A stretch of 64,000 nucleotides of DNA from Allosphingosinicella sp. Lineage in GTDB: Bacteria > Pseudomonadota > Alphaproteobacteria > Sphingomonadales > Sphingomonadaceae. Location of the stretch: assembly GCA_036386795.1 (NCBI GenBank), contig DASVUZ010000062.1, positions 23,710-87,709 on the forward strand, given 5' to 3'. The translations under genes and the position numbers were made by a program. Positions 35,143 to 59,148 of this stretch are shown here, piece after piece. Position 1 is the stretch's first letter, and each line of letters opens with the position of its first letter. The notes beneath the pieces are model-generated. The model did no database searches. It was not told where the DNA came from and saw only the letters and a program-made list of their open reading frames with translations.

Positions 35143-36042
35143 TTAGTCGGGCTGCGCAAGCCTCTCCCGGCAGACGCGCTCCACGATCTGCTGAAGCCCG
35201 GTCACCCGTTCGGTGAGCCAGTTCAGCTCTTCGTCGTAGATCTTGTAGTGCGGCGAATAGCGGGCGTTGACGTAGGCCTGGCGCAGCAACTCGAAAGCGC
35301 GCCGCTCGAATTTGCCCTCTCGAGGCCACGCCTCGATCAGAGCCGGGGCGATCTGCTCGGCCTGGGACCTCAGGAAATTTAGCTTGTGGGACTTCGGGCT
35401 GTAGAGCGTCAGCACCAGCAGTACGCAGTGATAGAAGCGCTCTGCGGCCTGGTGCAGCTCAAAGGCGGCCTTGTTCGACCAGCCCCGACCGGCGGCATCC
35501 TGGCCGTGGACCAGAAACTGGCCCGCGCTCGGGAACCACTCGTTGAAGTAAGCCGCGGCCTCTGCCCGCTGCTGCTCCGGCGGCAGCCTCCGAGGTGTCG
35601 CGAACGGAAACCCTTCGGCCTCATAAAGCGCCACCCCGTGCTCGGCGATGTCGACGAAGAAGGGGCGCCCGCGCTCGAGCTGGCTGTTCACGTCGCTGAG
35701 CGAGTGGACGATGAAGTTGACCGGCGCGCTGAGGGTCTTCGCGATCGAAGTCTCTCGAAGCAGCCTGTCGTCGGCTACCGACCAGAAATCCACCACGTCG
35801 GTCAGCCGCTCGTCGCTGACGACCACGAGGATGTCGTAGTCGGACCGATAGCCGCCAACGGGATCGTCTACCCACCCGCCGCGGGCGTAGGAGCCGTAGA
35901 GCACCACCTTGAGAATGCGGCCGCCCTTCTTCCACCCCTGGGTCGCCCGAGCGGTCACTGACTCGAACTCCTCGAAGAGAATGCGCACGACAAGTGCGAG
36001 CTCGCGCTGCTTCGTCGAAGGAAGGTCAAGGTCGGTTCGCAT
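35143..36042 (-). CDS. Fused nucleotidyltransferase (MNT)-HEPN protein
   Basis: LYGSYARG..SDYDIL (MNT); AAFELHQAAER, AYVNARY (HEPN). Confidence 0.9.
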   Translation of the reverse strand: MRTDLDLPSTKQRELALVVRILFEEFESVTARATQGWKKGGRILKVVLYGSYARGGWVDDPVGGYRSDYDILVVVSDERLTDVVDFWSVADDRLLRETSIAKTLSAPVNFIVHSLSDVNSQLERGRPFFVDIAEHGVALYEAEGFPFATPRRLPPEQQRAEAAAYFNEWFPSAGQFLVHGQDAAGRGWSNKAAFELHQAAERFYHCVLLVLTLYSPKSHKLNFLRSQAEQIAPALIEAWPREGKFERRAFELLRQAYVNARYSPHYKIYDEELNWLTERVTGLQQIVERVCRERLAQPD

Positions 36043-36170
36043 CTAGCCCCTGTTGACCGGATTACCGGTAGCACCTGACGTTCGTCCTAGCGCCGATTGT
36101 CCTCGACCGCCACGTCCGCCCGCAGCATCGTCTTAGAGGACCACTACGGGCCTCTCCTCAGTGGCCGGGG

Positions 36171-37235
36171 CTATTGTCTTTCGATGCTGGCCAACCAGTC
36201 CATCAGGATCTGCGGCAATGCGAGCCGACCCCCCGCCACGCGCTCGCGATCCTCCTCCCAAGGGAAGTCGGTGATAGGAATGCCGCGGTCGCCCAGTTCC
36301 TGCATGAAGTCCCCGAACCGGCGTATAGCTGCCATCCACTGATCTTGGGGTATCTTGACGGGCGGGTCCTTCAGTCCACCTATGGCGCATAGGAGCGCGG
36401 TCTCGTCGAAACGGTCCCTGAGCTGCTCCCTAGTGAGGCTACGCAGATAAGGGTTGCGGCTGTACTCTGTGCGCCAGCGCTCCGAGCGAGGCGCGATTTC
36501 GGGGATATGGTCGATCGTCACAAACTCATCGACTGAACCGATTGGCTCTTGGTCGTACCCGTTTTCGCTTCCCCACCGGTGGGCGACCAGGTCCAGCACA
36601 TCGCCCTTCCACGGGTGGTCGTAACAGCCGGGACCTTCGATGGTGACAATGGGATAGGTCAGCTTGTTGTTCTTCACCGTGGCATGGCGCTGGGTGAGGT
36701 ACAGGATGCCATCCACATGCCCGTAAAGCGGCCCATCCCCGTCCGTGCGCCGCACGGCGTGCCAGAGGATGTACGAGACGGTATGAGGGTCGTAGATCTC
36801 GTGATCCTCATTCACGAGCACCAGCAGTCGCACCATGTTTTGCCGCGGAAAGGAAGCCTCATGCGCCCGGAGTTGGCGGTTGGCCTTTTTGAGGTGATTG
36901 ATGATTGCTCGCCCGACACGGTCAATCATGCGACGCCTCACGCCGTCAGGGTCGTCCAGGTTCTTGATGAAGGACTCCATCGGGGCGGAACCGAGAAAAA
37001 TCGGCCAATCCTCTCGCTGCCGTAGCTCGTCAGTGAGGTTGTCGATCCGTTCGGTCGCCGGCTCCTCCAGCGTCTTGAGCTCGACCGCCAAAAGGCCTCG
37101 AAGGCAGGCGTAATCGATCCGTGTGGCCTCAGGGGAATGAGTATCGTCGAGCGAGACTCCGCCAAGCGTCGCCGTCAGATACTCTACCACCCGTGGCGTA
37201 AGGGGCCCGATCTTTCCAGTTCGCTCGATCCGCAT
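36171..37235 (-). CDS. Hypothetical protein with a PD-(D/E)xK-like motif
   Basis: 354 aa; RIDYACLRGLLAVELKTL fits D-x(n)-ExK. Confidence 0.55.
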   Translation of the reverse strand: MRIERTGKIGPLTPRVVEYLTATLGGVSLDDTHSPEATRIDYACLRGLLAVELKTLEEPATERIDNLTDELRQREDWPIFLGSAPMESFIKNLDDPDGVRRRMIDRVGRAIINHLKKANRQLRAHEASFPRQNMVRLLVLVNEDHEIYDPHTVSYILWHAVRRTDGDGPLYGHVDGILYLTQRHATVKNNKLTYPIVTIEGPGCYDHPWKGDVLDLVAHRWGSENGYDQEPIGSVDEFVTIDHIPEIAPRSERWRTEYSRNPYLRSLTREQLRDRFDETALLCAIGGLKDPPVKIPQDQWMAAIRRFGDFMQELGDRGIPITDFPWEEDRERVAGGRLALPQILMDWLASIERQ

Positions 37236-37404
37236 GGCTCACAGGTAGGAGTGTCGCCCTGCGTGGGGAAGTCGACGATCCGGGTGGAGATGCACTCTAA
37301 AGGCTCGGTAAGATTTGCAGATCACCGATGGGCCGGACGCCCCCGGGCGCCTGGAAGGCCCTTAGGTCGCAAAGGCCTTGTGATGCCACGCGCCGCCAAT
37401 GCGC

Positions 37405-38766
37405 CTAAGTTGCGCGAAATTTGACTCTGTCGAGGCCATCCAGAAATGCCTGACGCGAGTCGAAAATAGTCAGGCCGGTGATGGCTTTGTGAAAGGCAAT
37501 GAAAGCAAGCCGGAAGAGTCCATCCGCAACCTCCTCTTCTGCGATGCCCGCGAGACGGTGAACGATGCCGGATCGGAAAGCATAGGCTCTCTTGTAGGTC
37601 GAGACAGCCTCAAGCCGCTCACTTTGCGTGTGTGCGGTTAGGAAGGCCACCCGATCCGCCACCGAATACTGAATTGGTTCGCTCTCGTCCCGGACGAGCA
37701 GACATTCGAGGGCGGAGATGGCACCAACGAGGCGATCGCCAGCGTCGTACCGACCGATGGCGCGGCAGAAGCCGAAGAAAGCGTGGCGAAGCCGCTCCGC
37801 GAAATCGTTCAAAGGTCGCCCATCGAAGAAATGGCCGATGTTGGCCAAGCTTCCATTGGTGAGCTGCTCGATGTCCGGCGCCGACAATTTCCACATAGCG
37901 AGGCCGGCGTGGAAGAACTCGGCTTCAGCTCCGACAAGACGAGAATCTTCGAGCCGTAGCATTTGGATCGAGGGCAACGGATCGTGTCCGAGCGGATGTA
38001 CCGGACTTGGCACAGTCGCGGAGATCGCCGCGGGTGACATGAAGCGGATCACGCCGGCGACATCCCGCGCGACTTCCAGGGCCCGGTCAGCGGCGAAGCG
38101 CTTTTCACCCAGCGTCCGCACCTCGACGGCCGCCACATTGCCGAGCTTTCGGCCAAGCTCTTCGCTGCTGCGTCCAGCATTCTCCTTGTCAGGATGGCGC
38201 TCTCGAGCGCGCTGCGCGGCCTCCTCAAACAATTCAGGTGGCACGGTGATTAGGCGAACCTCTCCGATCTTGAAGTCGTGCGCGATCTCCAGATAGGCTA
38301 GCGGGACCAGGTAAACGTGCTCTGCGTAGGCGCGGCTGCACTCATTCAGCAGGTGCGACGCGAGGCCAACCGCCGTCTTCCCCGTCGATGACGCTTGGCA
38401 CCAAGTAATCACCGCCCTCTCCAGAAATCTTCGGGAAAAGCCGCTGCGGAACGGTTGCTTCCGGCCAACATCTTCAACCAAGAGGCGCAGCTCACGATAG
38501 CCGGGACCGCTGAGCGTCATCTGCTCGGCCCCTTCATAGTAATACCAGCCGGTGGTGCGGAGGCCGGCGTCGCAAAGCTCCCCAAAGGGGTCGCTGGCAA
38601 TCGCGTGAACGACCTCAGCAGGGCGGCGGCTCTCGAAGGGTTCAGGGGGCGACGGCGGAGGCGGCCTGCGCTCGAATAGCGCGAGCAGGCGATCACCTCG
38701 GCGATCGAACGACGCTGCCGCCTTTGGATGGAGCGCCTGCGCATCGAAGGAGGCTCCGTTGCTCAT
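37405..38766 (-). CDS. Apea-like HEPN domain protein
   Basis: C-terminal ISALECLL...ADRVAFL...AYAFRSGIVH (R-x4-H). Confidence 0.75.
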   Translation of the reverse strand: MSNGASFDAQALHPKAAASFDRRGDRLLALFERRPPPPSPPEPFESRRPAEVVHAIASDPFGELCDAGLRTTGWYYYEGAEQMTLSGPGYRELRLLVEDVGRKQPFRSGFSRRFLERAVITWCQASSTGKTAVGLASHLLNECSRAYAEHVYLVPLAYLEIAHDFKIGEVRLITVPPELFEEAAQRARERHPDKENAGRSSEELGRKLGNVAAVEVRTLGEKRFAADRALEVARDVAGVIRFMSPAAISATVPSPVHPLGHDPLPSIQMLRLEDSRLVGAEAEFFHAGLAMWKLSAPDIEQLTNGSLANIGHFFDGRPLNDFAERLRHAFFGFCRAIGRYDAGDRLVGAISALECLLVRDESEPIQYSVADRVAFLTAHTQSERLEAVSTYKRAYAFRSGIVHRLAGIAEEEVADGLFRLAFIAFHKAITGLTIFDSRQAFLDGLDRVKFRAT

Positions 38767-39433: not shown

Positions 39434-39449
39434 CGACCGATACCCGCCC

Positions 39450-39839: not shown

Positions 39840-40979
39840 TCAACTGATGGGCCGGGCTCGGCCCACCTGCGCCTCGTCGCCTTCGAGTCGGACCACCCAG
39901 CTGCCGGCGCCATCCTCGCCAGCGCGGCGGGGCATGGCGCCAGGCGTATCGCTGGGACTATCGGCCGTTTTTAGAGGCTTTGGCAGGCGGCCGTCGATCG
40001 CGTCGCTGATCGAGTGGCGCTCGATGCCGACAAAAGTCGGCTTGAGCGCCAGCCGCGCCAAGGCTTCCTGATCGGCGATCGACAGGTCAGTTTCCCCGAG
40101 CGGCCCACCCTTGGTTACAAAGCCACCGATCACCTCGTCGTCAGGCGCACCTTGGGCGCGATTGACACGATAGGTCTCGGTGCGGTCCAGCGCGCCGCGC
40201 GCTGTCTCAGCCGCCGCCTCGCGGCGGTTTTTAAATCGCTCCCGGATCAGCCCGTGAATCGGCTTGGCGAGCTGCTTATGGCCCAGCGCATCGAGTAGGC
40301 TCGCTATGTGCCAGCGAGCGATCCCCAGTGCCAGGGCCTCGACCTCCTCGGGCGCGATCGCTCCTTCCTCGTCGGGATCGTGCACCCAAAGCATCGGCTG
40401 GCTAGCGATGGGTGTCGAAAATCCCCAGCGCGTGGCGATGGCGAAGCGCTTGAAAGGCGCCAGGGCAGCCCCGGCCCTGATCTCGGCGCGCTGCGCCTGG
40501 GAATAGGCGCGGGCCAAGGCCGCCTCGGGGCCTTTCGGATGATGGCAGCCCTTGGCCTCGACGATCGCCATGCCGGGGGCCACGCCCCAGGCGACCCAGT
40601 CAGGCATGTCGCCGTTCGCTCCCGCGACACGGTGGAGCGCACCGTGCAGGTGCCCGGTCAGCGTCATCGGCGGTTTGCGGACATGGGTGAAGTGCGTCAG
40701 CCCAAGGAACTTCGTCGCATAGGCGCGGGCGACGAACCGGCCGAACAATCCGGATATCGCCGTCTTCACCTCGCGGGCATGGCCAAGCTGCTGGGCAAAG
40801 GTGAAAGTCGAGGCAGCGGGATCGAGCAGAGCGTCGAGGATCTTCCAGTTGCCCACCGCGGCGCCGGGCGTCTGCAAGATCTCGAGTAGCCCAGCATCCT
40901 CGATTTCCCGAACTGTCAGGTCGATCGTCGAAGCCGTGCTCGCGGTCGGTGTGCTGAAGCGATGGGCAAAATTCGGCAT
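39840..40979 (-). CDS. Putative PD-(D/E)xK nuclease
   Basis: MPDWVAW...AIVEAKG; start chosen at ATG 40979 (frame is open to 41105). Confidence 0.65.
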   Translation of the reverse strand: MPNFAHRFSTPTASTASTIDLTVREIEDAGLLEILQTPGAAVGNWKILDALLDPAASTFTFAQQLGHAREVKTAISGLFGRFVARAYATKFLGLTHFTHVRKPPMTLTGHLHGALHRVAGANGDMPDWVAWGVAPGMAIVEAKGCHHPKGPEAALARAYSQAQRAEIRAGAALAPFKRFAIATRWGFSTPIASQPMLWVHDPDEEGAIAPEEVEALALGIARWHIASLLDALGHKQLAKPIHGLIRERFKNRREAAAETARGALDRTETYRVNRAQGAPDDEVIGGFVTKGGPLGETDLSIADQEALARLALKPTFVGIERHSISDAIDGRLPKPLKTADSPSDTPGAMPRRAGEDGAGSWVVRLEGDEAQVGRARPIS

Positions 40980-41181: not shown

Positions 41182-44100
41182 ATGAAGTGGATCACGACCG
41201 CGCAGCTCGACGCATGGGGACGGACAAGAACGTCAGAGACCGAGCTCCCGGGCATGATCTCCGATCTTGTCCGCGCGACAGCGCCAGACATCACCGCAAT
41301 CCGCTTTCCGACCGGTGAGAAGGGCCAGGTCCGTGGCTTCGACGGCGTGCTCGACAGCTCGGTCGAGGTCCTGAATGTTCCACAGGGAAGATCCTATTGG
41401 GAGTTCGGCACCGAGGCGGGTCACCAGGCCAAGGCACTCAAAGACTTCAAAAAGCGCACCGACCAGGTCAGCGCCACCGATCAAGCGGAGGCGACGTTGG
41501 TTCTCGTCACCCCCTTCACCTGGGATTCCTCCGATTCAAAAAACAAGATCGAGGATTGGGAAAAGGCCCGCAAGAAGGAGTCCGAATGGAAGAAGGTCAA
41601 GCTGATCGACGGGGCGCAGCTTGAGGACTGGCTCGCCGAATGCCCCGCAGTGTCGGCCTGGCACGCGAAGAACACTCTTCGGGTCGCCCCGCGGGAGGGC
41701 GTGCGCAGCACGGATGATTATTGGTTTGATTTCGCGGACCGATTCGACCCCCGGCTGATCGAGGAAATGCTCCTCGCCGAGCGCGAACGTCAGGTCGACG
41801 AACTGCTGACCGGCTTGATGGGCCCGCCCCAGCCGCTGCGCTTTATCGCCGATTCGCCAGACGAGGTGACTGCGTTCGCGGTGGCCGCAATCCGCTCGGC
41901 AAAACCCGAGGTGAAGCTGTTCCTCGAAGCGCGGACGCTAGTCGTCGACACTTCCGACGCCGCGCGCGAGCTGGCGGGCAAATCCAATCTGGTATTCCTG
42001 GTCCGCGGCGAAGCGGCGCGCGCGCCGGGTCAGCTCGGCGACACTGGCCCGACCCTCGTGCCGCTCGGCCGGCAACAGGCCGTTAAAAAGGGCACCCTGC
42101 TCGAACGCCCCAGCAGCTTCGCCATGGCGAACGCGCTTGCCAAGATGAACCAGCCCCAGGCCCGCGCGGAGGCGCTTGCCAAGGGCTGCGGCCGCAGCCT
42201 CACCGCGCTTGCCCGGCAAATCCCCGGTGGCACCTGCGAAGTGCCGGATTGGGTCGAGCATGCGCAATTGCTGCTTCCCGCCATCCTTGCCGGGGGATGG
42301 GACAGTACCAACCCGCTCGATCAAGCCGTGGTGACCACGCTCGCCGGCGCCAGCAGCTATACTAATTATGAAAGCAGGATTCGCGGCTTCGTCGAAGGTT
42401 CGGACCCGGCGCTAGATCGCGAAGGCACGGTCTACAAAGTGCGCGCCCCGATGGACGCGTTCGTACATGCCGGCCACCACATTGGCCGCGAACATTTGGC
42501 GCTCCTCCGGCCGGTGCTCGAGCAGGTATTCAGCGTGCTTGATCCCGACCCCGATCCCGACGAGTCGTTTCGCTTTGGCGCGGAACGGGTGCCGCGATAC
42601 AGCGACTGGCTGCGCGATGGCCTCGCCAACACGCTGCTTTTGATCGCGCTCTGGCAGGACACCGCGCGGCTCGATTTGACCCCAGGAGAGGGGCAGGCGT
42701 TCGCCGATAAAGCCATTGGCGAGCTTCCGGGTCTCAAGACCAACGCCAGGCTCCTCACAAGTCTCAAAAACGAGCTGCCAATTCTGGCGGAGGCAGCCCC
42801 AGATGTTTTTCTGTCGGCCCTCGAGCACATGCTCGAGGGCGAGGGAGCAGCGATCCGCCCGATCTTTGATGAGGTTTATGGTCTGTCCTTCCGAACCTCG
42901 CGCCACACCGGGGTGCTATGGGCATTGGAGACGCTTGCCTGGGATTCGCGGCGGCTACGGCGCGTAGCGCTGATCCTGGCGCGCCTCGCCGAGATCGACC
43001 CCGGCGGCCGGCTGGCCAATCGTCCCGATGCGAGCCTTGCCGATATCTTCCTGCCCTGGCATCCCGGCACGCATGCGCCGGCCGATGCTCGGCTTTCGGT
43101 TGTCGACGATATCATCGCGTCGCACCCGCAGGTGGGATGGAAGCTGCTGCTCCGGTTACTGCCCGACGAGATGCGCATCACAAGCGGCACGGCGCGGCCG
43201 CGCTTGCGCGAGTCGGACGTCCCGGCACCAGCAGTGACGCATCACGACCTGGCCCTCGCCTATGATGCGCTAATCACCCGGGCGATCGCGGCGGCGGCGG
43301 GCGATCCGGCGCGCATGCAGGAACTGCTGCGGCCGATGATGCGGTTCGCGCCACAACAGCGGGCGGCGGCGCTCCGGGCGCTGGACGATACGCTCGCCAG
43401 CGCCACTGGTGAGGTTCGCGAACAGCTCTGGACCGGGTTGCGCAGCACGTTGCGGCAACACGAACGGTTTCCGGACGCTGATTGGTCGCTTCCGACCGTG
43501 GAGCTTGCCGAGGTACGCCGCATCGTCGGTGCCTATGCGCCCGCCGATCCGGTCGTGTCGGTCGCTGAGCTGTTCGATGTCCGCGCGCTTGAGCGCGACG
43601 ATGCTGCCGCCGCTGCTGAGCGCGCGCGTGTGGTCGAGAAGCTATATCTCGAGCAGGGCTCCGAGGCGGTGCTCGCGCTCGCCGGCACCGCACGGATGTG
43701 GCATCTCGTGGTGCGCGCGATTGAGGACAGTGGGCTCGACACCGCGCAGGTAGAGACGTTGCTCCGGAAGAGCTTCGCTGCAGAGCCGGGTGGGTCGCTC
43801 GCAACCGCGCTCGCCTCGGTCTACCGCCGCCGCACCGACGAGGCCGCGGCGCTCCTGCTAGTGAAGGAGCTCCACTGCGCCTCCGGCAACGACGATGCCA
43901 CCGCCGCGTTGCTGTTTGCCTGGCCAGACGAGCAAGAGACCTGGCAGGCGCTACCCAAGATCGGGACCGGCGTGGAGGATAGCTATTGGCGCCACGTGAA
44001 GCCCTTCTGGATCGAGGGATCCCCACCGCTGCTGGTCGAGCGAGTGACGCGCCTACTCGAATATGGACGGGCGATCGCTGGCCTCGAATCGGCGCTGAAC

Positions 44101-49505: not shown

Positions 49506-49600
49506 CTTTATCGGACAGCGGAGCGGGATCGGCCCGCTGTCGATTTGACCCGGAACCGGCGGGCGGCTCGCGGGTATGTCTGTTAGGAGGAAGGCGAACG

Positions 49601-50927: not shown

Positions 50928-53900
50928 GTGATCAGGAGCTCGACCCTGACGAAATCCGAACCGAGATTGCCGGAAAGCGCCGCGGACGAGCACGACTTCT
51001 GGAAGCTGGGGCCCAGGAGGTTCGAGCACCTCGCGCGGGCGCTGCACGGGGCGCAGCCGGGGATATTCGGCGACAGCCTCTATGGTCCGGATGGCCAAAT
51101 CCAATTTGGTGCAGACCACGTAGCGCATCGGCGCACCAGCTCAGGCCCCGAGCTCGAAGTCGGCCAAAGCAAAGCCTATCGTAGGTTTACCCCTCAGCAG
51201 GTTAGGACGGCCGCGGACCAGTTCCTGGAACATTGGGACGTCCATTGGAGCGGCAAGAACGTCCGTCGTTTCATCCTGTTCGTGGGGTGCGCGATCAAGT
51301 CTCGAGCTGCCCACGACGAGATCCTCACCCAGGTCGCCCGATTCGACGAACTCGGCATCGAGTTCGTGGTCTGGGACGCGAACGCGATCTACGATCGACT
51401 GGCAGGCGCACCAACGGTGGTCCGCGGCCATCTCGACCAAGGGTGGTATGAGCGCCTCTTTGGCCCGCAGGTGGGCCCCCTCACTGGCCTGCAGAAGGAC
51501 CTTCAGCTCGGCGATTTCGGTGCAGCAAACGTTGCCGCTTATGTGGGCCAGCTCAACCTTGCACAGAGTGCCCTGGTTGACGAGCTTAAGCGAAGCATTC
51601 GCCGCGGGGAATCAGAACGAGCGCGAATGACGCTCGAGCAGGCACTGTTCCAGTCAGCCGCTGCGTCTGCCTCAGCGCCAGAGACGAGAGCGAGCATGCT
51701 GCGTCTTCTCGCGGGCCTGCTGATCCGACAGGAGGCGTTCGAGCGGGCGAAAGCACTTTTCGACGAAGCCGACGCCCTGGATGGCGGGTCATCGGAGCGT
51801 GGCCGCGCTATCCTCGCCCTGGAAGCGATAGGGCCGGAAGCGGCCCTGTCCCAAACCGCAGAGACGACATCCCCTGAAGTCATCGAGGTCCGCACGATCG
51901 CGTACCTCAGGCTGAACCAAGTTCAAGAGGCGCTAAGGAGCCTAGCGGACGTTCCCAAAGGGCCAACCGGAGCTGAGACCCTCAGGCTTAGGGCGCTGGC
52001 GCAGCTATTGATCGGCGACCGCGCGAACGCCGTCTCATCCGCCCGCGAGGCCGTTTCACGGGATTCGGACAATCGGGCTTGCCGCCAGATGTTGGCGATT
52101 TGCCTGTTCCACCATGCGCTTTCTCCTGTTGTTGAGCCTATTGTTGGAGAATGGCCACACCCCGTTGATCAGCCACTCGTGCGCGAGAGCGACGACGCCG
52201 TTCGCGACCTGACCGAGGCGTCTGAACTCTTTGCAGATCTGTCCAGCCAGCCCGACCTTCGCGATCGAGACTCGATGGCAGCATGGCTCCTCGGCACGCT
52301 CGCATGTCTTCCTCGCCGTCGTTCCGAGGCTCAGCTATTGCTTGAGCAGCTACTCCTCGGTGATCGGTTTTCCGCGCCAGCGGTCGCCTGGGGAATGGCA
52401 AGGGGGTTGGATTTCGATCGAGTGGCTGCCGGGCGCCAACTTGATGCTCTCATTGCTGAGCGGCCGGATGATCTCGAAATCCGTCTCATTCGAATTGCTC
52501 TGGCTGTGCAGACCCGTGAATTGCCGCTCGCCAAGCGCCTGCTGAAAGAGGGAATGGCGAAGCCGGAGGCAGCGGGCGAGCAGCCGTCGTTCGCCTACTG
52601 GTCAGTAGTGCTTGACCTAGAGGGCGGCCGCCCGCTTTCGAAAGAGGCGATGGCGACTTATCCTTGGGTCGCATTCCGAGCAGCTCTTCGACTGCGCCCC
52701 CGTAAGAAGCGGCTTCAGGAGATCGACCGCCTGGCGAAGGATGCGGCCGCTCCTGGGGGCGATCGTCGAGTTCTATTGGCGGCGCTCCAACACCTCCTGG
52801 AGGGCGGACGGCATAATACGCCGGCCGACGCCGCTCACATACTGATAGAGGAGGTGGACACCGCTGAGGCGATCGCTGTGGCCGCACATGCGCTTTATCA
52901 GGCCGACCGCCCCGGGGAGGCCTTGGCGGCGCTCCAAAACGTGTCGGCCTTCCCCGACTCGAGACTCCCGGTAGATTTGGAACGACTGCGCGTCGCAAGC
53001 TTGACCGCCTCAGGCGAACTCCTCGAGGCGACGCGGGAGAGCCGCCGCATCGCGGAGACGACGCTGTCCCCGGGCGATCTCTGGCAATCCATCAACCTTC
53101 AATTGGCTGTCGGCGCCGTGCCTGCCGCCATCGCTCTGTACGAGCGGCATGCCGACAAATTGGCCGATCCACACCCCGGACATATCCACCTGGCTGCCCT
53201 TGCGCTCCATCACGACCGAGGCGCCGCGATCCGGATTACGCGGACCCTTGCCAGTCATGTTCCGGACGAACTCGTCACCGGTACGTACGGATTGGCGGCC
53301 AAGCTGAACCTGGCAGCCGAGCAAGACATGCTGGTTGAGCGGATACAGGATCTTGGAAGGCGCGGCGCCGAAGGCGTCCAGATGATCTCGGACATCGATA
53401 CTGTCGTGGAGATGATGAAGAAGCGCCGGGCCGCGGCGGACGAGGCCTACGAGAAGTACCAGCGCGGGCACATTCCCATCCATGCGATGGCCCGGTCCAA
53501 TCCGGGAGCGCTCGCGCAGCTCTACCTAGGCAGACTGGTAGTGCCGGAACCGGAGGGCGCGCAACCGCCCCCGTTATTTGCCCGCTACGGGCGCCGGTAT
53601 GAGCAGCCTTGGCCCGCCGAAGCGAGCGACGTCGTCCTGACCGCCGACGTTACGGCTCTGCTCACGGCTCATGGCTCGGGCATACTCGATTCCGTTGAGC
53701 GCGCCTTTCGACCGATCAGGATCGCGCCTGACATCCAAAATGCGCTGGCGGAGATTCGCTCGAGCCTGGAACCGGCCCAACCATCCCGCGTCGAAGCGAA
53801 GCGGGCAGTTTTGAGCCTTCTTGATGATTGTCGACTGAGCTGCCGGTCCTCGGACCTGGAAATTGATACCTACAAGGTGCGCTGGGATCTGGAGGGGAAT

Positions 53901-56900
53901 GATCCAGCGAATACGCTCAACCTTTCGCGCCTCGTATCTCTAATGAAGATAGACAACCGGCGTGAGCTGGGCGCCATCCGGAAGAAGCTGGGGACGACGA
54001 TCGTGGAGCCAGCTATCGGGCCAGCGCCGAAAGCGGGCAGCCAGATTAGCTTGGACGGGGTGATGGTTGTGACCCTGGCCGAGGTCGGAGCCCTCCCTCA
54101 TCTGCTGAACTCCTTTAAGCTCGTAATTGAGCCCGAAGAAGCTGCCACTCTACGGTCGGAGATCGCTGCAGATGAGCAAGCTGCGGTGGTATTGGCCTCG
54201 CTGAACAAGCTCATAAGCCGACTGGCGACAGGGATCGGGGACGGCACCTACTCCTTTGTCCCGCCTACGTCTGACCACGACGACCCATTAGGCCGGTCCT
54301 TCTTCCAAGTGGTCTCTTCCATGAAGCAGCCGGGGTCGACTCTTTGGATAGACGACCGATTCACCACCGCCTTTGAGACCCCATTCTTCCGCACAGTGAC
54401 CACTGCGGAGATTCTCGGGGCTCTGGCTAGGTACGAGCGGATCGACGGTCGGGTGCGGTCGGAATGTCGTCAGCGGCTGCGGAAGGCCCATTGGCTCTTC
54501 CTCGACATCCACGCCGAGGAAATCACCCAGTACCTTCGCGAAGCCGTTGCCGATGGAGACGTCAAGGCAACGGAAGACCTCGCAATCCTTCGGCGGGGCG
54601 CCGCCGCAAACGATCTCAATCGTCGCTGGTTTCAGTTTCCGGATGATGAGGCCGCCAAGAAAGGCGCGCGCGGCGAGCTGCCGTTCCTTCTCGACACTGG
54701 TAACGCCGCCGCGGACGTGCTTCGCGAATTATGGAATGACGAAAGCCTTGCGATCGAGGATGCTAAGGCAGCTTCCTCGTGGCTTGCCGAGTACCTCGAT
54801 CCTGAGTTGCTTTCGCTGAGCGTGCTCGCGCCCGAAGATCCGCGCAACGACCTGCTCGTCGGGCTCCATCTGGCCCAGTTGGTGATGGTGGGCATCCAGC
54901 TCCTTCCGCCCAAGTCGAAGCGCGATCGTCTCCGCTCCTACCTAGACTGGGTGTGGGAAACCGTGATCGACGAACGCTTACGTATGCGGCCGGAGATGCA
55001 GGAGCCGTTCGAGGCGGCTCTCGAGCGATATCTGATCGATCTGCTGGAGGACGACCCTTCACTGCACAGACCGACTTGGATCGCGCTTGCCGGAAACCTG
55101 ATCAATTCGCTGCCGAAAGCGCCGCGCCTTCGATTGCTCGAACGGCCCAAAATCCGAGGCGCCTTCGGAAACCCCGATCACGGCAATATAACAATCGACG
55201 AGCTGCAATTTGACGAGGTCGATTTCTGGAAGGCCGCCGCCTCCGCAAGCGTCAATCAGGCTGCCACACTGAGCACGGTGACAGGGAAACAGGCCACCCT
55301 GCGCCTCCGCCCGGCTACGGATAGGCACGCGGCCAGCCTCGACCTAAAGATCGGCAGGCGAACCTTGCACCTCGATGACTGGCCGGCGAGGGTTGCCGCA
55401 CCAGCACGGGACATCAGGCGCACAGCGATCGCCGAGAAAGCGGACCTTCTCGATATGGCGTCAGATCGGCTGGATCGGCTGGCGGCAGATCTCGCGCGGG
55501 TGCGCCCCGCTTGGAAGCGTCCCATGCGCGTGATGCAGCTAGCGGGCAAAACATTGCCCTCTTGGTACGCGGACCTGGAGGGCGATCTCCGACAGCAGAA
55601 GCCCTTTAAGGCTACAGTGCTGGTCCCTCAGGAGCTGCCGCCGATCCTGGCCTACCTCCGACTGTCCACCGACACAGATCAGGCGGTCGGAGACCTCATC
55701 CGCGAACGTGGACTTATGGTGACCATCCAGCGGTGGAGCCATCTGCCAGTCCCGCCGCCCGAAGCTCTTCTCGATGAGATAGAGCGCGCTACGCCAGCCG
55801 ACATAAACGCACTGATGAACCTCGTGACCGATGCGAGCCGCGGTGTCTGGAGCAGGATGTTTGTGGCGGGAATCTTGTGGGCCCGCGGCCAGGGCGATGA
55901 GGAAATTCGTCCCCGTCTAGCTCGCGCGGTACTCGAGATCGCCTCAAAGGAGGGCGTAGCCGAAGAATGGGCACTCTACAGCACCGCCGCCCATTTCTTC
56001 GCTTCTGAGTTTGCTCGGCTGGACGGGTGGTCCGATCTCACAGCTCGCCAACAACTCGCCGTTGCCTGGGTTCATGCGGGCGAGGTGGCGCAGCGCCTGA
56101 TGGATGCCACTAAAGATCTTCGCCGCACGGCGAGGTGGCTGGAAAGTTCGCGTCTGATTTCGCCGCGAACTCTTGTCCGAGAACGCGCCGGCTATGCGGG
56201 CGACTTCGCCGATCCGTCGCATGTGACGCCGGCACGGCTTCGGCTATTGGCTACCGGGCCGTATCTTGTGGAATTGGTGCGGGACCCCGTATGCGGCCCA
56301 GAAGCCAAAGAGCTCCTCATCGATCATATGGGGGAACGGACCGAAAGCGGCCTGCTGCCGCGCTCGGATACGCTTCAGGCCGGGCTCTGCATCAGTGACT
56401 GTCTCGGCAGCTATCTCGCTGCTGACCTCGGGAGAATGACCGATGAAATCCTCCCTGGGTCGATAATATTCTCCAGAGACGGTCTCACGGACCTGCTTCG
56501 CAGCTCCTTGGAGGAGCCAGCCGACTCGAGAGCGTTCCGTGTGGTGTGGAGTCATCTGCTCGGCGTCACGAGCGGCTTCCTAGCGAGTTCCTCCCTATCG
56601 GCGCTGGCGAGGCGGCGGGTGTACGATCTCGACCTTACTTCGCAGGAAGATGGTCTGCGCCACGCCAGGGAGGTCCTACAGGCGATCACAAGGCTTGCCG
56701 GGGCGAACGGATGGCTTGACCTCGCTCCCGCTATCGACGCCGCGTCGATAGCGCTCTCGCGCGAAGCGCGGGAGCCGGAGGACGAGGATATCCGTTCGCT
56801 GAGCACCATGTTGGAGATCGCATTCTGGCGGGCCCGCCTGGAAGACGATCTCGACGCCCGCACCGCCATCTTCGCCAGAGATCTCGAGCGCCTCGCAGCG

Positions 56901-57017
56901 CACCCAAGGCTCAAAACGGCAGCTGAAGGGGCAGCCGGTCGGTTCGCTACGGCCCTCGCAGGCCGCCACGCGGCGCCGTTTATCGACCTCCTCGCGAAGC
57001 TGCGGGCGCAACGGTAG
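50928..57017 (+). CDS. Giant putative defence protein: Mrr/REase-like nuclease + TPR + PIN-like domain(s) + helical C-terminus
   Basis: 2029 aa; FEHL..LYGPDGQ.QFGAD..QSKAY; TPR-like helices; ADVTALL and LWIDDR PIN-like motifs; no Walker A seen. Confidence 0.7.
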   Translation: MIRSSTLTKSEPRLPESAADEHDFWKLGPRRFEHLARALHGAQPGIFGDSLYGPDGQIQFGADHVAHRRTSSGPELEVGQSKAYRRFTPQQVRTAADQFLEHWDVHWSGKNVRRFILFVGCAIKSRAAHDEILTQVARFDELGIEFVVWDANAIYDRLAGAPTVVRGHLDQGWYERLFGPQVGPLTGLQKDLQLGDFGAANVAAYVGQLNLAQSALVDELKRSIRRGESERARMTLEQALFQSAAASASAPETRASMLRLLAGLLIRQEAFERAKALFDEADALDGGSSERGRAILALEAIGPEAALSQTAETTSPEVIEVRTIAYLRLNQVQEALRSLADVPKGPTGAETLRLRALAQLLIGDRANAVSSAREAVSRDSDNRACRQMLAICLFHHALSPVVEPIVGEWPHPVDQPLVRESDDAVRDLTEASELFADLSSQPDLRDRDSMAAWLLGTLACLPRRRSEAQLLLEQLLLGDRFSAPAVAWGMARGLDFDRVAAGRQLDALIAERPDDLEIRLIRIALAVQTRELPLAKRLLKEGMAKPEAAGEQPSFAYWSVVLDLEGGRPLSKEAMATYPWVAFRAALRLRPRKKRLQEIDRLAKDAAAPGGDRRVLLAALQHLLEGGRHNTPADAAHILIEEVDTAEAIAVAAHALYQADRPGEALAALQNVSAFPDSRLPVDLERLRVASLTASGELLEATRESRRIAETTLSPGDLWQSINLQLAVGAVPAAIALYERHADKLADPHPGHIHLAALALHHDRGAAIRITRTLASHVPDELVTGTYGLAAKLNLAAEQDMLVERIQDLGRRGAEGVQMISDIDTVVEMMKKRRAAADEAYEKYQRGHIPIHAMARSNPGALAQLYLGRLVVPEPEGAQPPPLFARYGRRYEQPWPAEASDVVLTADVTALLTAHGSGILDSVERAFRPIRIAPDIQNALAEIRSSLEPAQPSRVEAKRAVLSLLDDCRLSCRSSDLEIDTYKVRWDLEGNDPANTLNLSRLVSLMKIDNRRELGAIRKKLGTTIVEPAIGPAPKAGSQISLDGVMVVTLAEVGALPHLLNSFKLVIEPEEAATLRSEIAADEQAAVVLASLNKLISRLATGIGDGTYSFVPPTSDHDDPLGRSFFQVVSSMKQPGSTLWIDDRFTTAFETPFFRTVTTAEILGALARYERIDGRVRSECRQRLRKAHWLFLDIHAEEITQYLREAVADGDVKATEDLAILRRGAAANDLNRRWFQFPDDEAAKKGARGELPFLLDTGNAAADVLRELWNDESLAIEDAKAASSWLAEYLDPELLSLSVLAPEDPRNDLLVGLHLAQLVMVGIQLLPPKSKRDRLRSYLDWVWETVIDERLRMRPEMQEPFEAALERYLIDLLEDDPSLHRPTWIALAGNLINSLPKAPRLRLLERPKIRGAFGNPDHGNITIDELQFDEVDFWKAAASASVNQAATLSTVTGKQATLRLRPATDRHAASLDLKIGRRTLHLDDWPARVAAPARDIRRTAIAEKADLLDMASDRLDRLAADLARVRPAWKRPMRVMQLAGKTLPSWYADLEGDLRQQKPFKATVLVPQELPPILAYLRLSTDTDQAVGDLIRERGLMVTIQRWSHLPVPPPEALLDEIERATPADINALMNLVTDASRGVWSRMFVAGILWARGQGDEEIRPRLARAVLEIASKEGVAEEWALYSTAAHFFASEFARLDGWSDLTARQQLAVAWVHAGEVAQRLMDATKDLRRTARWLESSRLISPRTLVRERAGYAGDFADPSHVTPARLRLLATGPYLVELVRDPVCGPEAKELLIDHMGERTESGLLPRSDTLQAGLCISDCLGSYLAADLGRMTDEILPGSIIFSRDGLTDLLRSSLEEPADSRAFRVVWSHLLGVTSGFLASSSLSALARRRVYDLDLTSQEDGLRHAREVLQAITRLAGANGWLDLAPAIDAASIALSREAREPEDEDIRSLSTMLEIAFWRARLEDDLDARTAIFARDLERLAAHPRLKTAAEGAAGRFATALAGRHAAPFIDLLAKLRAQR

Positions 57018-57093
57018 CCTCGAGTCGCGCGAGGTTCATCCCTGTCACATCGCGGTAGCTCGGCCTCTCTGAAACTTACCTGATGGCGTGGCC

Positions 57094-58125
57094 TCAGCCG
57101 AAGGACAAGCTGAGGAAATTGTCGGTGCCGTGTTGGTTCGAACCGAACCGCACCTTATAGTCCGGACCCAGCGCGGCGGCGTGCGTCTCTGCGCTCGCGG
57201 GATCAGGGTGAAGTCCGGCAAAATGCCAAGGAGCAGAGCGCACGACGCCGTAGCCGCGATACCAGCCGGGATTGGAGGCATCGAGGAAGGGCATCAGGTT
57301 CTGAATCGGAAACCCACCGAACCACAGGCCGAAGCCCACGCCCCAGCCGCTTTCGTCGGGCTCGATACTCGAGCTGACCAGTCCGACGATCTCACCGGCC
57401 TCGTTGAACAAGGGACCGCCACTCATCCCCGAGCGCCAATTCGCCTTGAGCTCGACGATCGGCCAAGGACGTGACTGGCCGAGCCCCTGCGGATGGATGG
57501 CTACGACCTCCCCGATCGCGCCGTACATCCGCTCGACGTATCGGGGCTGCTTGGGCAGCGGTTCATCCTGTACCAATCCGAGTTCGGGGTATCCGATTGC
57601 CAGAAGGCGGTCGCCTATCGCCGGAGGTGTGCCCGAGCAGCGCAACGGCAGCGGCGCCAGCCGCTTCGCACGTTCTTCAGACTGAATAGCGAGGCTGAGC
57701 CGCAGGCAGTCCGCCAGGATCTTCGAACCGCTCTTGCCGGAGACGAAGTTGTGAAACGGATCCTGCGGACTCAGGTCGACGAAGCCATGCATGCCATTCA
57801 ACGGCGCGAACAGCTCCTGTGGCAATCCGACCGTCCCAAAGACGATGCCGATGTTGAGCATCGCGACCGGTATCTCCTCGAACTCCGGCGGCGGCTTTGC
57901 GAGGTCGACATGCTCGAAGATGTGCTGCGCGGTGAGGAAGCCGCGGAATGGATCAGCGCAGAAGGCTGTGCCGAGGCCGGTCAGATGCCCGGTCTTACGA
58001 TTGACGGAAAGCAATGGGAGAATTGATTCGCGCACTCCGAACGGATCCTCGATACGAAACTCCGCCGGGTCTTGGTCGGACTTGGGAAGGACTGGGAATG
58101 GCACGCGACAGAAACCTCCCTCCAA
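57094..58125 (-). CDS. Trypsin-like serine protease
   Basis: LTAQH (His), ADCLRL (Asp candidate), GMSGGP (Ser); no signal peptide. Confidence 0.85.
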   Translation of the reverse strand: MEGGFCRVPFPVLPKSDQDPAEFRIEDPFGVRESILPLLSVNRKTGHLTGLGTAFCADPFRGFLTAQHIFEHVDLAKPPPEFEEIPVAMLNIGIVFGTVGLPQELFAPLNGMHGFVDLSPQDPFHNFVSGKSGSKILADCLRLSLAIQSEERAKRLAPLPLRCSGTPPAIGDRLLAIGYPELGLVQDEPLPKQPRYVERMYGAIGEVVAIHPQGLGQSRPWPIVELKANWRSGMSGGPLFNEAGEIVGLVSSSIEPDESGWGVGFGLWFGGFPIQNLMPFLDASNPGWYRGYGVVRSAPWHFAGLHPDPASAETHAAALGPDYKVRFGSNQHGTDNFLSLSFG

Positions 58126-58203
58126 TGCCTTATCGTCGATGCGATGAGGCTCTCACTCCGCGGCCATCGCTTGGCGGATATTGACGACCACGCCTAAGCA
58201 ACT

Positions 58204-59148
58204 TTGGTGATCTCGCTCCACGCCTTTGTTGACGATTCCACAAGCGACGTCGATGATCGCCGCCTGTTCCTCGCCGCCTACATTAACGGGGCTGGCCCCT
58301 GGATCGATTTCGGTCATGAATGGCGTGCAGCGCTCGCCGAGCCCCCGGGCATCGCTTATCTGAAGATGGCGGAAGCGCAGAATCTGAGAGGCGAGTTCAA
58401 AGGCTGGTCGGCGACCGATCGGGACTCAAAGATCCTTCGCCTGGCGCACGTGATCGCGGCGAGTCGGCCTTGGTCGGTATATTGCTCGGTCAGCCGGAGG
58501 GACTATGCGCGGATCGTAGCGCCGGCCGCGCCCTATCCGCTCAAACAGCCTTATTTCTGCTGCTTCTGGGGGATCATTCGTACGTCGGCCGATTACCATC
58601 TGCACCTCGATAACGACCGTCCCGCCGACACTCACCCCATTCCGCCGCTTCAATACGTGTTCGACGAGCAAGGCGGGCTCGGGACCGATGCGGCGCTCTG
58701 GTATGCGTGGCTCAAGCAGACACAGGAACCGCCGATCGCCGCGCTGATGGGCGATCAGCCTATTTTCGGCGACGACAAAGCCATGATGGGACTGCAGGCG
58801 GCGGACATGCTCGCCTGGCACGTGCGGCGGCGGCACGAGCGCGGCCCGGACGGCCTTCAACCGATCCTCGACCTGCTGCTCGGAGACGGCGCCTGTCGGG
58901 AAGTCGACGCTGCGGCGCTTGAGCTATGGGCTAGGGAATTTCGTCGCATACCTGGGGTCGCTGGTGTCCAAACGAAGCGGGAGTGGCACGAGACCCGAGC
59001 TGCGGCACTAGCAGCTATTGAGGCTGGCGAGTCTCCCCCGGCTACGAGCTTGGCACGTCTGCGCTGGCTGAGTTTCAAGGTAGCTTGGCGTCGGCTGGCG
59101 AAAGGCTGGCGACGTCGCGTTCGACGAAGGAACCGACGGAGCCGTTAG
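58204..59148 (+). CDS. DUF3800 family protein
   Basis: AFVDDS at the N-terminus, YVFDEQ, GLQAADMLAW; basic C-terminal tail. Confidence 0.8.
   Translation: MVISLHAFVDDSTSDVDDRRLFLAAYINGAGPWIDFGHEWRAALAEPPGIAYLKMAEAQNLRGEFKGWSATDRDSKILRLAHVIAASRPWSVYCSVSRRDYARIVAPAAPYPLKQPYFCCFWGIIRTSADYHLHLDNDRPADTHPIPPLQYVFDEQGGLGTDAALWYAWLKQTQEPPIAALMGDQPIFGDDKAMMGLQAADMLAWHVRRRHERGPDGLQPILDLLLGDGACREVDAAALELWAREFRRIPGVAGVQTKREWHETRAAALAAIEAGESPPATSLARLRWLSFKVAWRRLAKGWRRRVRRRNRRSR

What the first reader, a model, noticed from the sequence alone, without database searches (positions are those of the whole stretch)
35143..59148. ~24-kb candidate defence hotspot: about eight nuclease-like domains plus a protease, not matching a system I can name
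Seen in series: MNT-HEPN; ExK protein; Apea-like HEPN; XRE; PD-ExK nuclease; 1246-aa nuclease/degenerate-NTPase; 1371-aa STAND-nuclease; small wHTH; 2029-aa REase-TPR-PIN; trypsin; DUF3800. No methyltransferase, cas gene, CD-NTase or RT is recognisable. Known: defence genes cluster in tRNA-integrated islands, and HEPN, PD-(D/E)xK, PIN and STAND are typical effectors or sensors. Inference: several single-gene sensor-effector systems, some likely undescribed. This is the best candidate for a new system in the window.
Basis: partly seen in the sequence, partly recalled or inferred. Interest (0 to 1): 0.85.

Follow-up and report, generated by a model that had tools for sequence, protein, structure and literature searches.

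The report
Defence-gene cargo of a tRNA-Ser island
The 24-kb stretch is the cargo end of a 38.5-kb mobile island inserted at a tRNA-Ser gene and carries about ten independent, mostly single-gene candidate anti-phage modules; its three giant genes turn out to be relatives of kinds already described, two of them as unusual variants.

Summary
All eleven listed genes exist where stated, except that the XRE gene lies on the + strand and the small wHTH could not be verified. The cluster lies inside a 38.5-kb integrative island bounded by a perfect 20-bp repeat (20696-20715 and 59249-59268) at tRNA-Ser. The island also carries an integrase and a copper-resistance cassette.

"Not matching a system I can name" is only partly right:
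- **The 1371-aa NACHT protein** matches NCBIfam "antiphage EruA" over its full length (841 bits, below the 1000-bit cut-off).
- **The 2029-aa protein** belongs to the TPR-GreA/B-C-PIN class of Kaur et al. 2021. It is a rare ~2000-aa variant: REase head, HTH, two PINs, permuted GreA/B-C.
- **The 1246-aa protein** is a remote relative of Avs8A/PD-lambda-4A without a Walker A motif. Its family has at least 272 sequence clusters and no annotation in any library searched.

The 453-aa HEPN, the 354-aa and 378-aa PD-(D/E)xK-like proteins and both giants occur elsewhere without the window's neighbours. They are therefore independent single-gene modules, not operon systems. No function was tested here. 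Verdict: an ordinary defence island holding new variants of known kinds. Interest is moderate.

The parts
20696..20715 (+). attL: 20-bp repeat CCTCCGTCTCCGCCAGAGCC overlapping the 3' end of tRNA-Ser(gct) (tRNA 20618-20710)
20827..22032 (+). tyrosine integrase of the island (Arm-DNA-bind_3, Phage_int_M, Phage_integrase)
35143..36042 (-). A: fused MNT (GSYARG...SDYD) and HEPN protein, 299 aa
   Evidence: Pfam HEPN and Polbeta. Cluster members are named nucleotidyltransferase/HEPN. A 55%-identical homologue sits in another island, L040.
36171..37235 (-). B: 354-aa PD-(D/E)xK-like protein (D41, E52-L-K54; NEDHEIYDP motif)
   Evidence: Alignment invariants. Six metagenome loci carry it without A or C homologues. 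No Pfam, PADLOC, NCBIfam or PDB hit.
37405..38766 (-). C: 453-aa Apea-like HEPN protein; the R398-SGIV-H403 motif lies at 37558-37575
   Evidence: stand-alone in the defence-type contexts L007 and L009
39176..39433 (+). XRE-type HTH regulator, 85 aa, divergent from C
   Evidence: PHROG transcription-regulator hits; ORF list
39840..40976 (-). E: 378-aa PD-(D/E)xK nuclease-like protein (GDMPDW 40596-40613; IVEAKG 40548-40565); the ORF extends to 41105
   Evidence: 345 representative homologues. Invariants D123, P125, D126, W127, E140, K142, G143. Only a sub-threshold FAN1 VRR-NUC match at the motif.
41182..44922 (+). F: 1246-aa Avs8A-like protein. It has a nuclease-like head (D54, E74), an alpha/beta domain with IADSPDEV where a P-loop is expected (41845-41868), and a helical sensor. 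The Avs8A-homologous segment is aa 503-792 (42688-43557).
45390..49451 (-). G: EruA-family NACHT NTPase (called as 1353 aa; ORF extends to 49505). Walker A GEPGIGKT lies at 49329-49352; the C-terminal RADVLI...IEAK nuclease motif lies at 45708-45767.
49598..49918 (+). possible small wHTH ORF, divergent from G; unverified
   Evidence: ORF only; the stretch 49598-49918 gave no PHROG hit, and the enclosing ORF 49385-49918 no Pfam, PADLOC or NCBIfam hit
50967..57017 (+). H: 2016-aa (2029 from GTG at 50928) TPR-GreA/B-C-PIN-class protein. Domains in order: REase head (51084-51173 motifs), TPR region, HTH (53394-53597), PIN1 (D907, 53637-53663), PIN2 (WIDDRF, 54345-54362), permuted GreA/B-C-like beta domain (about 55194-55352), helical tail.
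57094..58125 (-). I: cytoplasmic trypsin-like serine protease (TAQH 57916-57933; GMSGGP 57412-57429) with a C-terminal 60-aa domain shared with small phage and plasmid ORFs
58204..59148 (+). J: DUF3800-like protein, 314 aa
   Evidence: 23.9 bits, cut-off 21; N-terminal FVDDS motif
59249..59268 (+). attR: second copy of the 20-bp repeat; end of the island
   Evidence: conserved flank resumes at about 59324

Best explanation
The region is the right-hand cargo of a 38.5-kb integrase-borne island inserted at the 3' end of tRNA-Ser. The cargo is a string of independent, self-contained candidate anti-phage modules. Each is one polypeptide that joins a sensing part to a nucleic-acid- or protein-cutting part.

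Inferred mechanisms (none was tested here):
- **G (EruA-family NACHT):** an NTP-dependent switch. A phage cue bound by its roughly 900-aa helical region would drive oligomerisation and activate the C-terminal PD-(D/E)xK nuclease.
- **F:** an Avs8A-like pattern-recognition protein. Its solenoid would bind a phage protein (Avs8 senses the major capsid protein) and so activate the N-terminal nuclease-like head. It has no Walker A, so activation would probably not need NTP hydrolysis.
[quoted passage not shown] Following the Kaur et al. model, it would dock on RNA polymerase through the GreA/B-C-like domain and cut transcripts with its PIN domains. The N-terminal REase would serve as a second, suicidal effector.
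- **A and C:** HEPN RNases.
- **B and E:** stand-alone PD-(D/E)xK nucleases.
- **I and J:** a protease and a DUF3800 protein of unknown role.

The gene order is shown and modularity is supported by the homologue loci. The biochemical activities and anti-phage function are inferred from homology and context.
For: Island: tRNA-Ser, integrase, 20-bp attL/attR repeat, GC drop, conserved flank from about 59324.

G: NF058535 antiphage_EruA, E 2.4e-252, aligned 22-1344 against 1-1317 of 1318 model positions. It sits in a continuum of full-length matches scoring 815-997 bits in other Pseudomonadota. Walker A and the D...EAK motif are present.

F:
- AF2 model has pLDDT 87.8.
- The best PDB fold match is Avs4 8dgf_A, E 2.6e-5; SAMD9 is also listed.
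- 18 of 38 family members hit PADLOC PD-Lambda-4_A, best E 3e-8.
- hhalign against four Avs8A-like proteins gives 96% probability, E 4e-9, collinear. The N-terminal domains align collinearly at P 1.4e-3.
- Seven contexts, all without a conserved partner (three of them also tested by tblastn with the island's proteins). Four are in mobile elements, including a P4-like integrative element, and one lies beside Lamassu-type genes.

H:
- PF24407 matches 18 of 18 members, PIN-TPR-GreABC 11 of 18, Permuted_GreAB-C 2 of 18, and TPR/ANAPC3 also match.
- The Permuted_GreAB-C match in homologue P0018 maps to H 1423-1475, which is the small beta domain of the AF2 model.
- Invariant residues: D55, D63, E77, Q80, K82, D907, E924, D1142, D1143.
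- It is stand-alone in four contexts, one of them beside a 1768-aa PNP_UDP_1 protein.
- Class description: PMC8195603. Validated example: 10.1101/2024.11.07.622273.

C and B: stand-alone, with conserved catalytic motifs.
Against: - No experiment or expression data were examined, so every function rests on homology and neighbourhood.
- G scores below NCBIfam's equivalog cut-off (841 against 1000 bits) and is only 25-30% identical to other family members. I could not find the publication that defines EruA.
- In H itself the PIN and GreA/B-C models stay below Pfam cut-offs. Foldseek returned only generic solenoids.
- F's nuclease head lacks the canonical Lys of ExK (it has WEFG). Its central domain could not be aligned significantly with the Avs8A NTPase (P 0.083).
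- I, J and the wHTH have no informative relatives.
- The same island carries copper resistance, so cargo here is not exclusively defensive.
Confidence: 0.75

Rival explanations
1. Some of the genes form multi-gene operon systems: C-B-A under the divergent XRE regulator, the divergent pair E-F, and the divergent pair I-J. In that case sensor and effector are split between proteins.
For: C, B and A are co-oriented with short gaps (169 and 128 bp) and sit opposite an XRE gene. E and F, and I and J, are divergent with short spacers. In L039 an E-like gene sits beside a trypsin-like protease and an ATPase. In L040 an A homologue lies about 2 kb from a decayed E homologue.
Against: tblastn with all island proteins found no A or C homologue in the six B loci, no A or B homologue in the three C loci, and no E homologue in the three F loci tested; the other three F loci were read only from their gene tables, which cannot show a family that has no Pfam model. 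The F and H families keep a constant length and have changing neighbours. I has no homologue in 350 genomes of the order, so I-J linkage cannot be tested.
Confidence: 0.12
2. The cluster serves the island itself rather than the host. The nucleases and RNases would then be addiction (toxin-antitoxin-like), exclusion or element-competition modules, with no role against phage.
For: Everything lies inside one integrative element. MNT-HEPN fusions and HEPN proteins are classical toxin-antitoxin parts (general knowledge). F homologues sit in transposon, IS or integrative contexts.
Against: The closest named relatives are anti-phage proteins: EruA by NCBIfam, Avs8 (PMC13581612; 10.1101/2025.07.02.662641) and Bab/Agp (10.1101/2024.11.07.622273). 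Sensor-sized solenoids of 700-900 aa are not needed for addiction. Defence and element competition are not mutually exclusive.
Confidence: 0.1
3. Part of the cargo is decaying or non-functional, and the resemblance to effectors is a remnant. Candidates are F's lost P-loop, H's weak PIN and GreA/B-C matches, the orphan protease, and the 1-kb ORF-free stretch before H.
For: F has no Walker A. H's own domains score below cut-off. An E homologue in G193 is frame-shifted. The stretch 49950-50930 has no convincing ORF.
Against: Open frames of 1246, 1371 and 2029 aa remain intact in a 65% GC genome. The F family keeps 50% mean column identity, about 65 invariant residues and a fixed length across at least 272 clusters from several proteobacterial classes. 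The H family keeps its putative catalytic residues. Loss of ATPase motifs has a functional precedent in KpAvs8 (PMC13581612, legend of Extended Data Fig. 11).
Confidence: 0.05

Closest known systems
EruA (NCBIfam NF058535, 'NACHT domain-containing antiphage protein EruA')
   Same: G aligns end to end with the 1318-position model (E 2.4e-252). It has the N-terminal NACHT Walker A, a long helical middle and a conserved C-terminal D...ExK region.
   Different: G scores 841 bits against the 1000-bit equivalog cut-off and is only 25-30% identical to sampled family members. It is a divergent subfamily, and no experiment covers this branch. The defining paper was not found in the library.
TPR-GreA/B-C-PIN ('TGP') conflict proteins (Kaur et al. 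2021, PMC8195603); validated example Agp of Bab/Agp (10.1101/2024.11.07.622273)
   Same: H has a variable N-terminal effector (REase is one of the 13 listed), TPR repeats, a PIN of the PF20698 type and a GreA/B-C-type domain. It is a stand-alone gene with changing neighbours.
   Different: H has about 2000 aa, which I recall to be roughly twice the length of Agp (not checked here). The order is TPR-HTH-PIN-PIN-(permuted GreA/B-C)-540-aa helical tail, instead of TPR-GreA/B-C-PIN. There is no amyloid motif or Bell partner. Only 18 clusters were found in 5.8 billion proteins, almost all from Sphingomonadales.
Avs8A / PD-lambda-4 protein A (STAND NTPase with Mrr nuclease; senses the major capsid protein: PMC13581612; 10.1101/2025.07.02.662641)
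   Same: F has the same length class (1246 against about 1283 aa) and the same layout: nuclease-like head, alpha/beta domain, helical sensor. The sensor start (F 503-792 against Avs8A 528-815) shows significant collinear profile homology. The Foldseek top hit is another Avs, Avs4.
   Different: F has no Walker A anywhere conserved; IADSPDEV stands where Avs8A-like proteins have GxxGxGKT. The head has D...E-F-G instead of D...Q-x-K. No conserved downstream (Avs8B-like) gene appears in any of the seven contexts. PADLOC scores are about 20 bits, against 640-2490 bits for true members. KpAvs8 with degenerate Walker motifs is a published precedent. Its relation to F could not be tested.
HEPN-MNT modules and Apea-like HEPN proteins (Anantharaman et al. 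2013, PMC3710099)
   Same: A has both MNT and HEPN domains. C keeps an invariant R-x4-H motif, and a homologue carries the Apea-like HEPN name.
   Different: In A the two domains are fused in one chain rather than encoded as a gene pair. C matches no Pfam model at E below 0.01.

Membership tests
EruA (NCBIfam NF058535) | Full-length match to the family HMM | tested here: met
   Residues 22-1344 align with 1-1317 of 1318 positions, E 2.4e-252.
EruA (NCBIfam NF058535) | Score at or above the curated equivalog cut-off (1000 bits) | tested here: not met
   841 bits. Among the 401 Pseudomonadota genomes searched, 4 exceed the cut-off and about 10 more (besides G's own) have full-length or near-full-length matches at 815-997 bits.
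EruA (NCBIfam NF058535) | NACHT-type Walker A and Walker B | tested here: met
   GEPGIGKT at aa 52-59 and LFLDALDE at aa 91-98.
EruA (NCBIfam NF058535) | Protection against phage | not testable with these tools
   Needs plaque assays.
TPR-GreA/B-C-PIN class (Kaur et al. 2021) | TPR or alpha-solenoid region | tested here: met
   ANAPC3 in 6 of 18 members, plus TPR_14 and TPR_2 hits. One homologue is named a TPR repeat protein.
TPR-GreA/B-C-PIN class (Kaur et al. 2021) | PIN domain of the class-specific type (PF20698) | tested here: inconclusive
   H itself scores 18.5 bits, E 0.0026, against a cut-off of 27.8. Eleven of 18 family members match, best E 2.7e-5. D1142 and D1143 are invariant.
TPR-GreA/B-C-PIN class (Kaur et al. 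2021) | GreA/B-C domain | tested here: inconclusive
   No match in H itself. Permuted_GreAB-C matches 2 of 18 members. In homologue P0018 it scores 24 bits (cut-off 27) at aa 1418-1467, which maps to H 1423-1475, a beta mini-domain in the model.
TPR-GreA/B-C-PIN class (Kaur et al. 2021) | Variable N-terminal effector and stand-alone gene | tested here: met
   REase-like invariants D55, D63, E77, Q80, K82. Four contexts show no conserved neighbour.
Avs8 / PD-lambda-4 protein A | Match to the PADLOC PD-Lambda-4_A model at family level | tested here: not met
   F scores about 20 bits over 86 residues. True members score 640-2490 bits.
Avs8 / PD-lambda-4 protein A | Homologous sensor region | tested here: met
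   hhalign 96% probability, E 4e-9, 262 collinear columns.
Avs8 / PD-lambda-4 protein A | P-loop (Walker A) of a STAND NTPase | tested here: not met
   No conserved GxxxxGK[ST] in 38 members. The four Avs8A-like proteins all have it at aa 218-242, counted from the start of the protein.
Avs8 / PD-lambda-4 protein A | Mrr-type nuclease head | tested here: inconclusive
   Collinear alignment at P 1.4e-3. D54 and E74 are invariant, but the motif reads E-F-G rather than (E/Q)-x-K.
Avs8 / PD-lambda-4 protein A | Operon partner Avs8B | tested here: not met
   No conserved downstream gene in any of the seven contexts (window, L004-L006, L047-L049).
HEPN-MNT | HEPN and minimal nucleotidyltransferase domains | tested here: met
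   HEPN 32.1 bits (cut-off 22). Polbeta 25.4 bits (cut-off 26.9), with GSYARG...SDYD present.
PADLOC-defined defence systems (v2.0.0) | Any protein reaching a system model | tested here: not met
   Only weak partial hits: PDC-S09, PD-Lambda-4_A and the protease domain of RT-Protease_XI.

The most novel reading that the evidence does not exclude
The F family would be a distinct, widespread branch of STAND-derived pattern-recognition nucleases. It has at least 272 clusters, about 1245 aa per protein, spans several proteobacterial classes, and carries no Pfam, NCBIfam or PADLOC family assignment. On this reading it has discarded the P-loop entirely and fires its nuclease head on binding a phage structural protein, without any NTP switch and without a partner. 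That would be an NTP-independent descendant of an NLR-like receptor.
Probability: 0.3. Interest if true: 0.7.

Novelty: new variant of a known kind. Interest (0 to 1): 0.5.

Why it matters
The island gives three ready-made test cases for how large single-chain immune sensors vary.
- **F** is an Avs8-like protein with no nucleotide-binding loop. It could show whether STAND-type receptors can work without their switch.
- **H** is a 2000-aa TPR-GreA/B-C-PIN variant with two PINs and a restriction-type head. It could test the proposed RNA-polymerase-docking model.
- **G** is a divergent EruA.

The region also yields four unannotated small effector families (B, C, E, I) for defence-system catalogues. 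As a defence island in itself it is ordinary.

Tried and rejected
- **attR search:** a 25-nt search for the tRNA 3' end with 3 mismatches found no attR, and the repeat finder missed it. A k-mer search then found the 20-bp repeat.
- **Empty site:** looking for one in relatives failed. Both flanks are conserved but lie on different contigs or far apart.
- **EruA literature:** searches for 'EruA' or 'Eru' as a defence system found nothing relevant. Erebus/Hypnos (Avs10) was considered as the source of the name and could not be linked.
- **Sequence searches of PDB:** nothing for F, G, H or the B family.
- **Foldseek on H:** the C-terminal 1200 aa returned only importin-like solenoids from PDB and nothing from BFVD, so the PIN and GreA/B-C folds could not be confirmed structurally.
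- **Pfam models on the own genome:** Permuted_GreAB-C and PIN-TPR-GreABC gave no useful match in H.
- **Close-relative scans:** scans of genome contigs for I and E found none.
- **Second PADLOC model:** PDLC03990 proved to be a shorter model of the same Avs8A proteins, not a KpAvs8-type family. The supplements of the Avs paper are not held. The relation of F to KpAvs8 therefore stays open.
- **Rfam:** no match in 33-60 kb.
- **Rejected ORF:** the 123-aa minus-strand ORF at 39116-39487 was rejected as a gene.

Full report
**Setting**

The window comes from a genome of about 68-70% GC whose closest protein matches are to Sphingomonadales. A tRNA-Ser(gct) gene lies at 20618-20710. A tyrosine integrase follows at 20827-22032, then a copper-resistance cassette: PepSY_TM proteins, CopB, a multicopper oxidase, a MerR regulator and a P-type ATPase. 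A perfect 20-bp repeat, CCTCCGTCTCCGCCAGAGCC, occurs at 20696-20715 (the tRNA 3' end) and again at 59249-59268. GC falls to 0.60-0.64 inside this interval. Nucleotide homology to same-genus genomes resumes at about 59324, with a response-regulator gene and an ABC ATPase gene. The finding (35143-59148) is therefore the right-hand cargo of one 38.5-kb integrative island. An empty site could not be shown, because the two flanks are not adjacent in relatives.

**Observation**

The XRE gene is the + strand ORF 39176-39433 (PHROG regulators), not the overlapping 123-aa minus-strand ORF, whose translation looks spurious. The small wHTH at about 49598-49918 matched nothing. Gene callers on record use 299 aa for A, 354 for B, 1246 or 1259 for F, 1353 for G and 2016 or 2029 for H. 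E most likely starts at M44, giving 378 aa, because homologues align from residues 1-3 of that form.

**G, 1371 aa**

NCBIfam NF058535, 'NACHT domain-containing antiphage protein EruA', matches G end to end. The E-value is 2.4e-252 and the score 841 bits, below the 1000-bit equivalog cut-off. In the search of 401 Pseudomonadota genomes (G's own among them), 33 have a match at E <= 1e-10, 4 exceed the cut-off, and a further group including G forms a continuum of full-length or near-full-length matches at 815-997 bits. G is only 25-30% identical to those proteins. The C-terminal region carrying RADVLI...IEAK is the best conserved part. Walker A (GEPGIGKT) and Walker B (LFLDALDE) are intact. G is thus a divergent member of a named anti-phage family. 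I could not find the paper behind the name.

**H, 2029 aa**

- **Pfam matches.** HTH_upstream_double_PIN matches at aa 823-890. Scanning all 18 family members gave PF24407 in 18, PIN-TPR-GreABC (PF20698) in 11 (best E 2.7e-5), Permuted_GreAB-C (PF24388) in 2, and TPR/ANAPC3 in several.
- **The known class.** These domains are the parts of the TPR-GreA/B-C-PIN conflict proteins of Kaur et al. 2021 (PMC8195603). Those authors describe a variable N-terminal effector (REase is one of 13 listed), a constant TPR-GreA/B-C-PIN core, and mostly stand-alone genes. They propose docking on RNA polymerase, transcript cleavage by the PIN domain, and a back-up suicidal effector. One member, Agp of the E. coli Bab/Agp pair, protects against T5 (10.1101/2024.11.07.622273).
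- **Structure and mapping.** The AF2 model of H 820-2019 (pLDDT 84.2) shows two alpha/beta PIN-like modules, a helical region, a small beta domain at H 1420-1483 and a helical tail. The Permuted_GreAB-C model hits homologue P0018 at aa 1418-1467 (24 bits). That stretch maps to H 1423-1475, which is exactly the small beta domain.
- **Conserved residues.** Family-wide invariants include D55, D63, E77, Q80 and K82 in the head, D907 and E924 in PIN1, and D1142 and D1143 in PIN2.
- **Limits.** Foldseek gave only solenoid matches. In H itself the PIN and GreA/B-C models stay below cut-off.
- **Rarity and context.** Only 18 clusters were found among 5.8 billion proteins, nearly all from Sphingomonadales. 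The neighbours differ in every context: a RelA_SpoT-like gene and a serine recombinase; a TonB receptor and a MarR regulator; a 1768-aa PNP_UDP_1 protein.

H is therefore a rare, double-PIN, permuted-GreA/B-C variant of a known class.

**F, 1246 aa**

- **Library searches.** There is no Pfam or NCBIfam family hit, and PADLOC gives only a 20-bit hit to PD-Lambda-4_A.
- **Family.** It is large, with at least 272 clusters at 90% identity, and spans alpha-, beta- and gammaproteobacteria. Length is fixed at about 1245 aa, and every named member is called 'hypothetical protein'.
- **Fold.** With a 74-sequence alignment, AF2 gives pLDDT 87.8. The best PDB match is Avs4 bound to a phage portal (8dgf_A, E 2.6e-5). 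Solenoid proteins and SAMD9 follow.
- **Homology to Avs8A.** Eighteen of 38 members hit PD-Lambda-4_A, best E 3e-8. PD-lambda-4A is Avs8A, an Mrr-nuclease STAND NTPase that senses the major capsid protein (10.1101/2025.07.02.662641; PMC13581612). I retrieved four Avs8A-like genes and compared profiles. F 503-792 aligns with Avs8A 528-815 at 96% probability, E 4e-9. The N-terminal domains align collinearly at P 1.4e-3.
- **Missing P-loop.** All four Avs8A-like proteins have GxxGxGKT at aa 218-242, counted from the start of the protein. F-family members have no conserved Walker A and carry ADSPDEV at that place, with D224 invariant. The central domains could not be aligned significantly (P 0.083).
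- **Precedent.** The legend of Extended Data Fig. 11 of PMC13581612 states that KpAvs8 has degenerate Walker motifs. Loss of ATPase motifs in Avs8-like sensors is therefore not new. Whether F is close to KpAvs8 could not be tested.
- **Contexts.** Seven contexts show no conserved partner. They include TniQ with transposases, a resolvase, IS66 with a resolvase and integrase, a P4-like integrative element, and a Burkholderia island carrying LmuB_C and QueC genes.

**Small genes**

- **A** is a fused MNT-HEPN protein.
- **C** has only 12 clusters. Its R-x4-H motif is invariant, and one homologue carries the name 'Apea-like HEPN'. Homologues sit beside nSTAND3 and TIR genes, or Cap4-nuclease and RT genes, without B or A.
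- **B** has six metagenomic homologues with invariant D41, E52, K54 and a NEDHEIYDP motif, again without A or C nearby.
- **E** belongs to a family of 345 representatives of about 375 aa, with invariant GDxPDW and EAKG and no Pfam model. Its only PDB signal is a sub-threshold FAN1 VRR-NUC match at the motif.
- **I** is a trypsin-like protease with His and Ser motifs. It has no homologue in 350 genomes of the order. Its last 60 aa match small ORFs of lambdoid and Pseudomonas phages and of plasmids.
- **J** is a marginal DUF3800 match.

**Reading**

The genes are independent modules. tblastn with all island proteins against the fetched homologue loci found no co-occurring neighbour, except an A homologue about 2 kb from a decayed E homologue in another island. 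It argues against the C-B, E-F and I-J pairings proposed in sibling notes; the I-J pairing itself could not be tested.

The claim that nothing can be named is refuted for G and H, and softened for F. What is new is at the level of variants:
- a P-loop-less, partner-less sister family of Avs8A;
- several unannotated small effector families.

None of the functions has been tested. The mechanisms given above are inferences from the cited families.

Noticed in passing
window 57094-57300 (I, aa 275-342): The last 60 or so residues of the trypsin-like protein match phrog_4280 (E 6e-19). They also match stand-alone ~65-aa ORFs in lambdoid phage mEp237, in Pseudomonas phages, and on Burkholderia, Enterobacter and Salmonella plasmids. 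A protease is thus fused to a small phage- and plasmid-borne domain of unknown function.
   Followed up: partly
window 19513-19598 and 62819-62900: Two short (~85 nt) dispersed repeats. Each matches dozens of places at 80-93% identity in this genome and in same-genus genomes. The second forms tandem arrays on other contigs, for example G000:C11:40857-41732. These look like REP- or MITE-like elements.
   Followed up: no
window 49950-50930: About 1 kb upstream of H has lower GC (~0.60) and no convincing ORF. Rfam finds nothing there. It could be a long leader or promoter region, or a gene remnant.
   Followed up: no
L040 (G193:C32) 5189-8819: Another alphaproteobacterial island carries a 55%-identical A (MNT-HEPN) homologue, then a 449-aa ORF of unidentified function, then a frame-shifted E homologue. 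The A and E families therefore travel in the same kind of island.
   Followed up: partly
L039 (G347:C1) 7698-12785: An E-like 411-aa gene lies next to a 356-aa trypsin-like protease and a 779-aa ATPase with a GYGKT P-loop, in a 47% GC genome. This may be a multi-gene system that contains an E-type nuclease.
   Followed up: no
L011 (G360:C1) 484-5256: In a genome of the same family as the window's organism, the frame holding the Avs8A-like match stays open for about 340 codons upstream of the match, and that stretch includes an XRE-type HTH (GLSQRALASLAGVSVPTVNAFEQG). It could be an N-terminal extension or a separate upstream gene read through in frame.
   Followed up: no
window 39116-39487 (-): A 123-aa ORF overlaps the XRE gene on the opposite strand. 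It has an implausible translation and no hits. It is a likely over-call in a high-GC genome.
   Followed up: yes
window 33160-35071: Four ORFs of 120-190 aa lie between the copper ATPase and gene A. None has a Pfam or NCBIfam hit, and the two also put through PADLOC have none there either. Their function is unknown, and they may separate the two cargo blocks.
   Followed up: no
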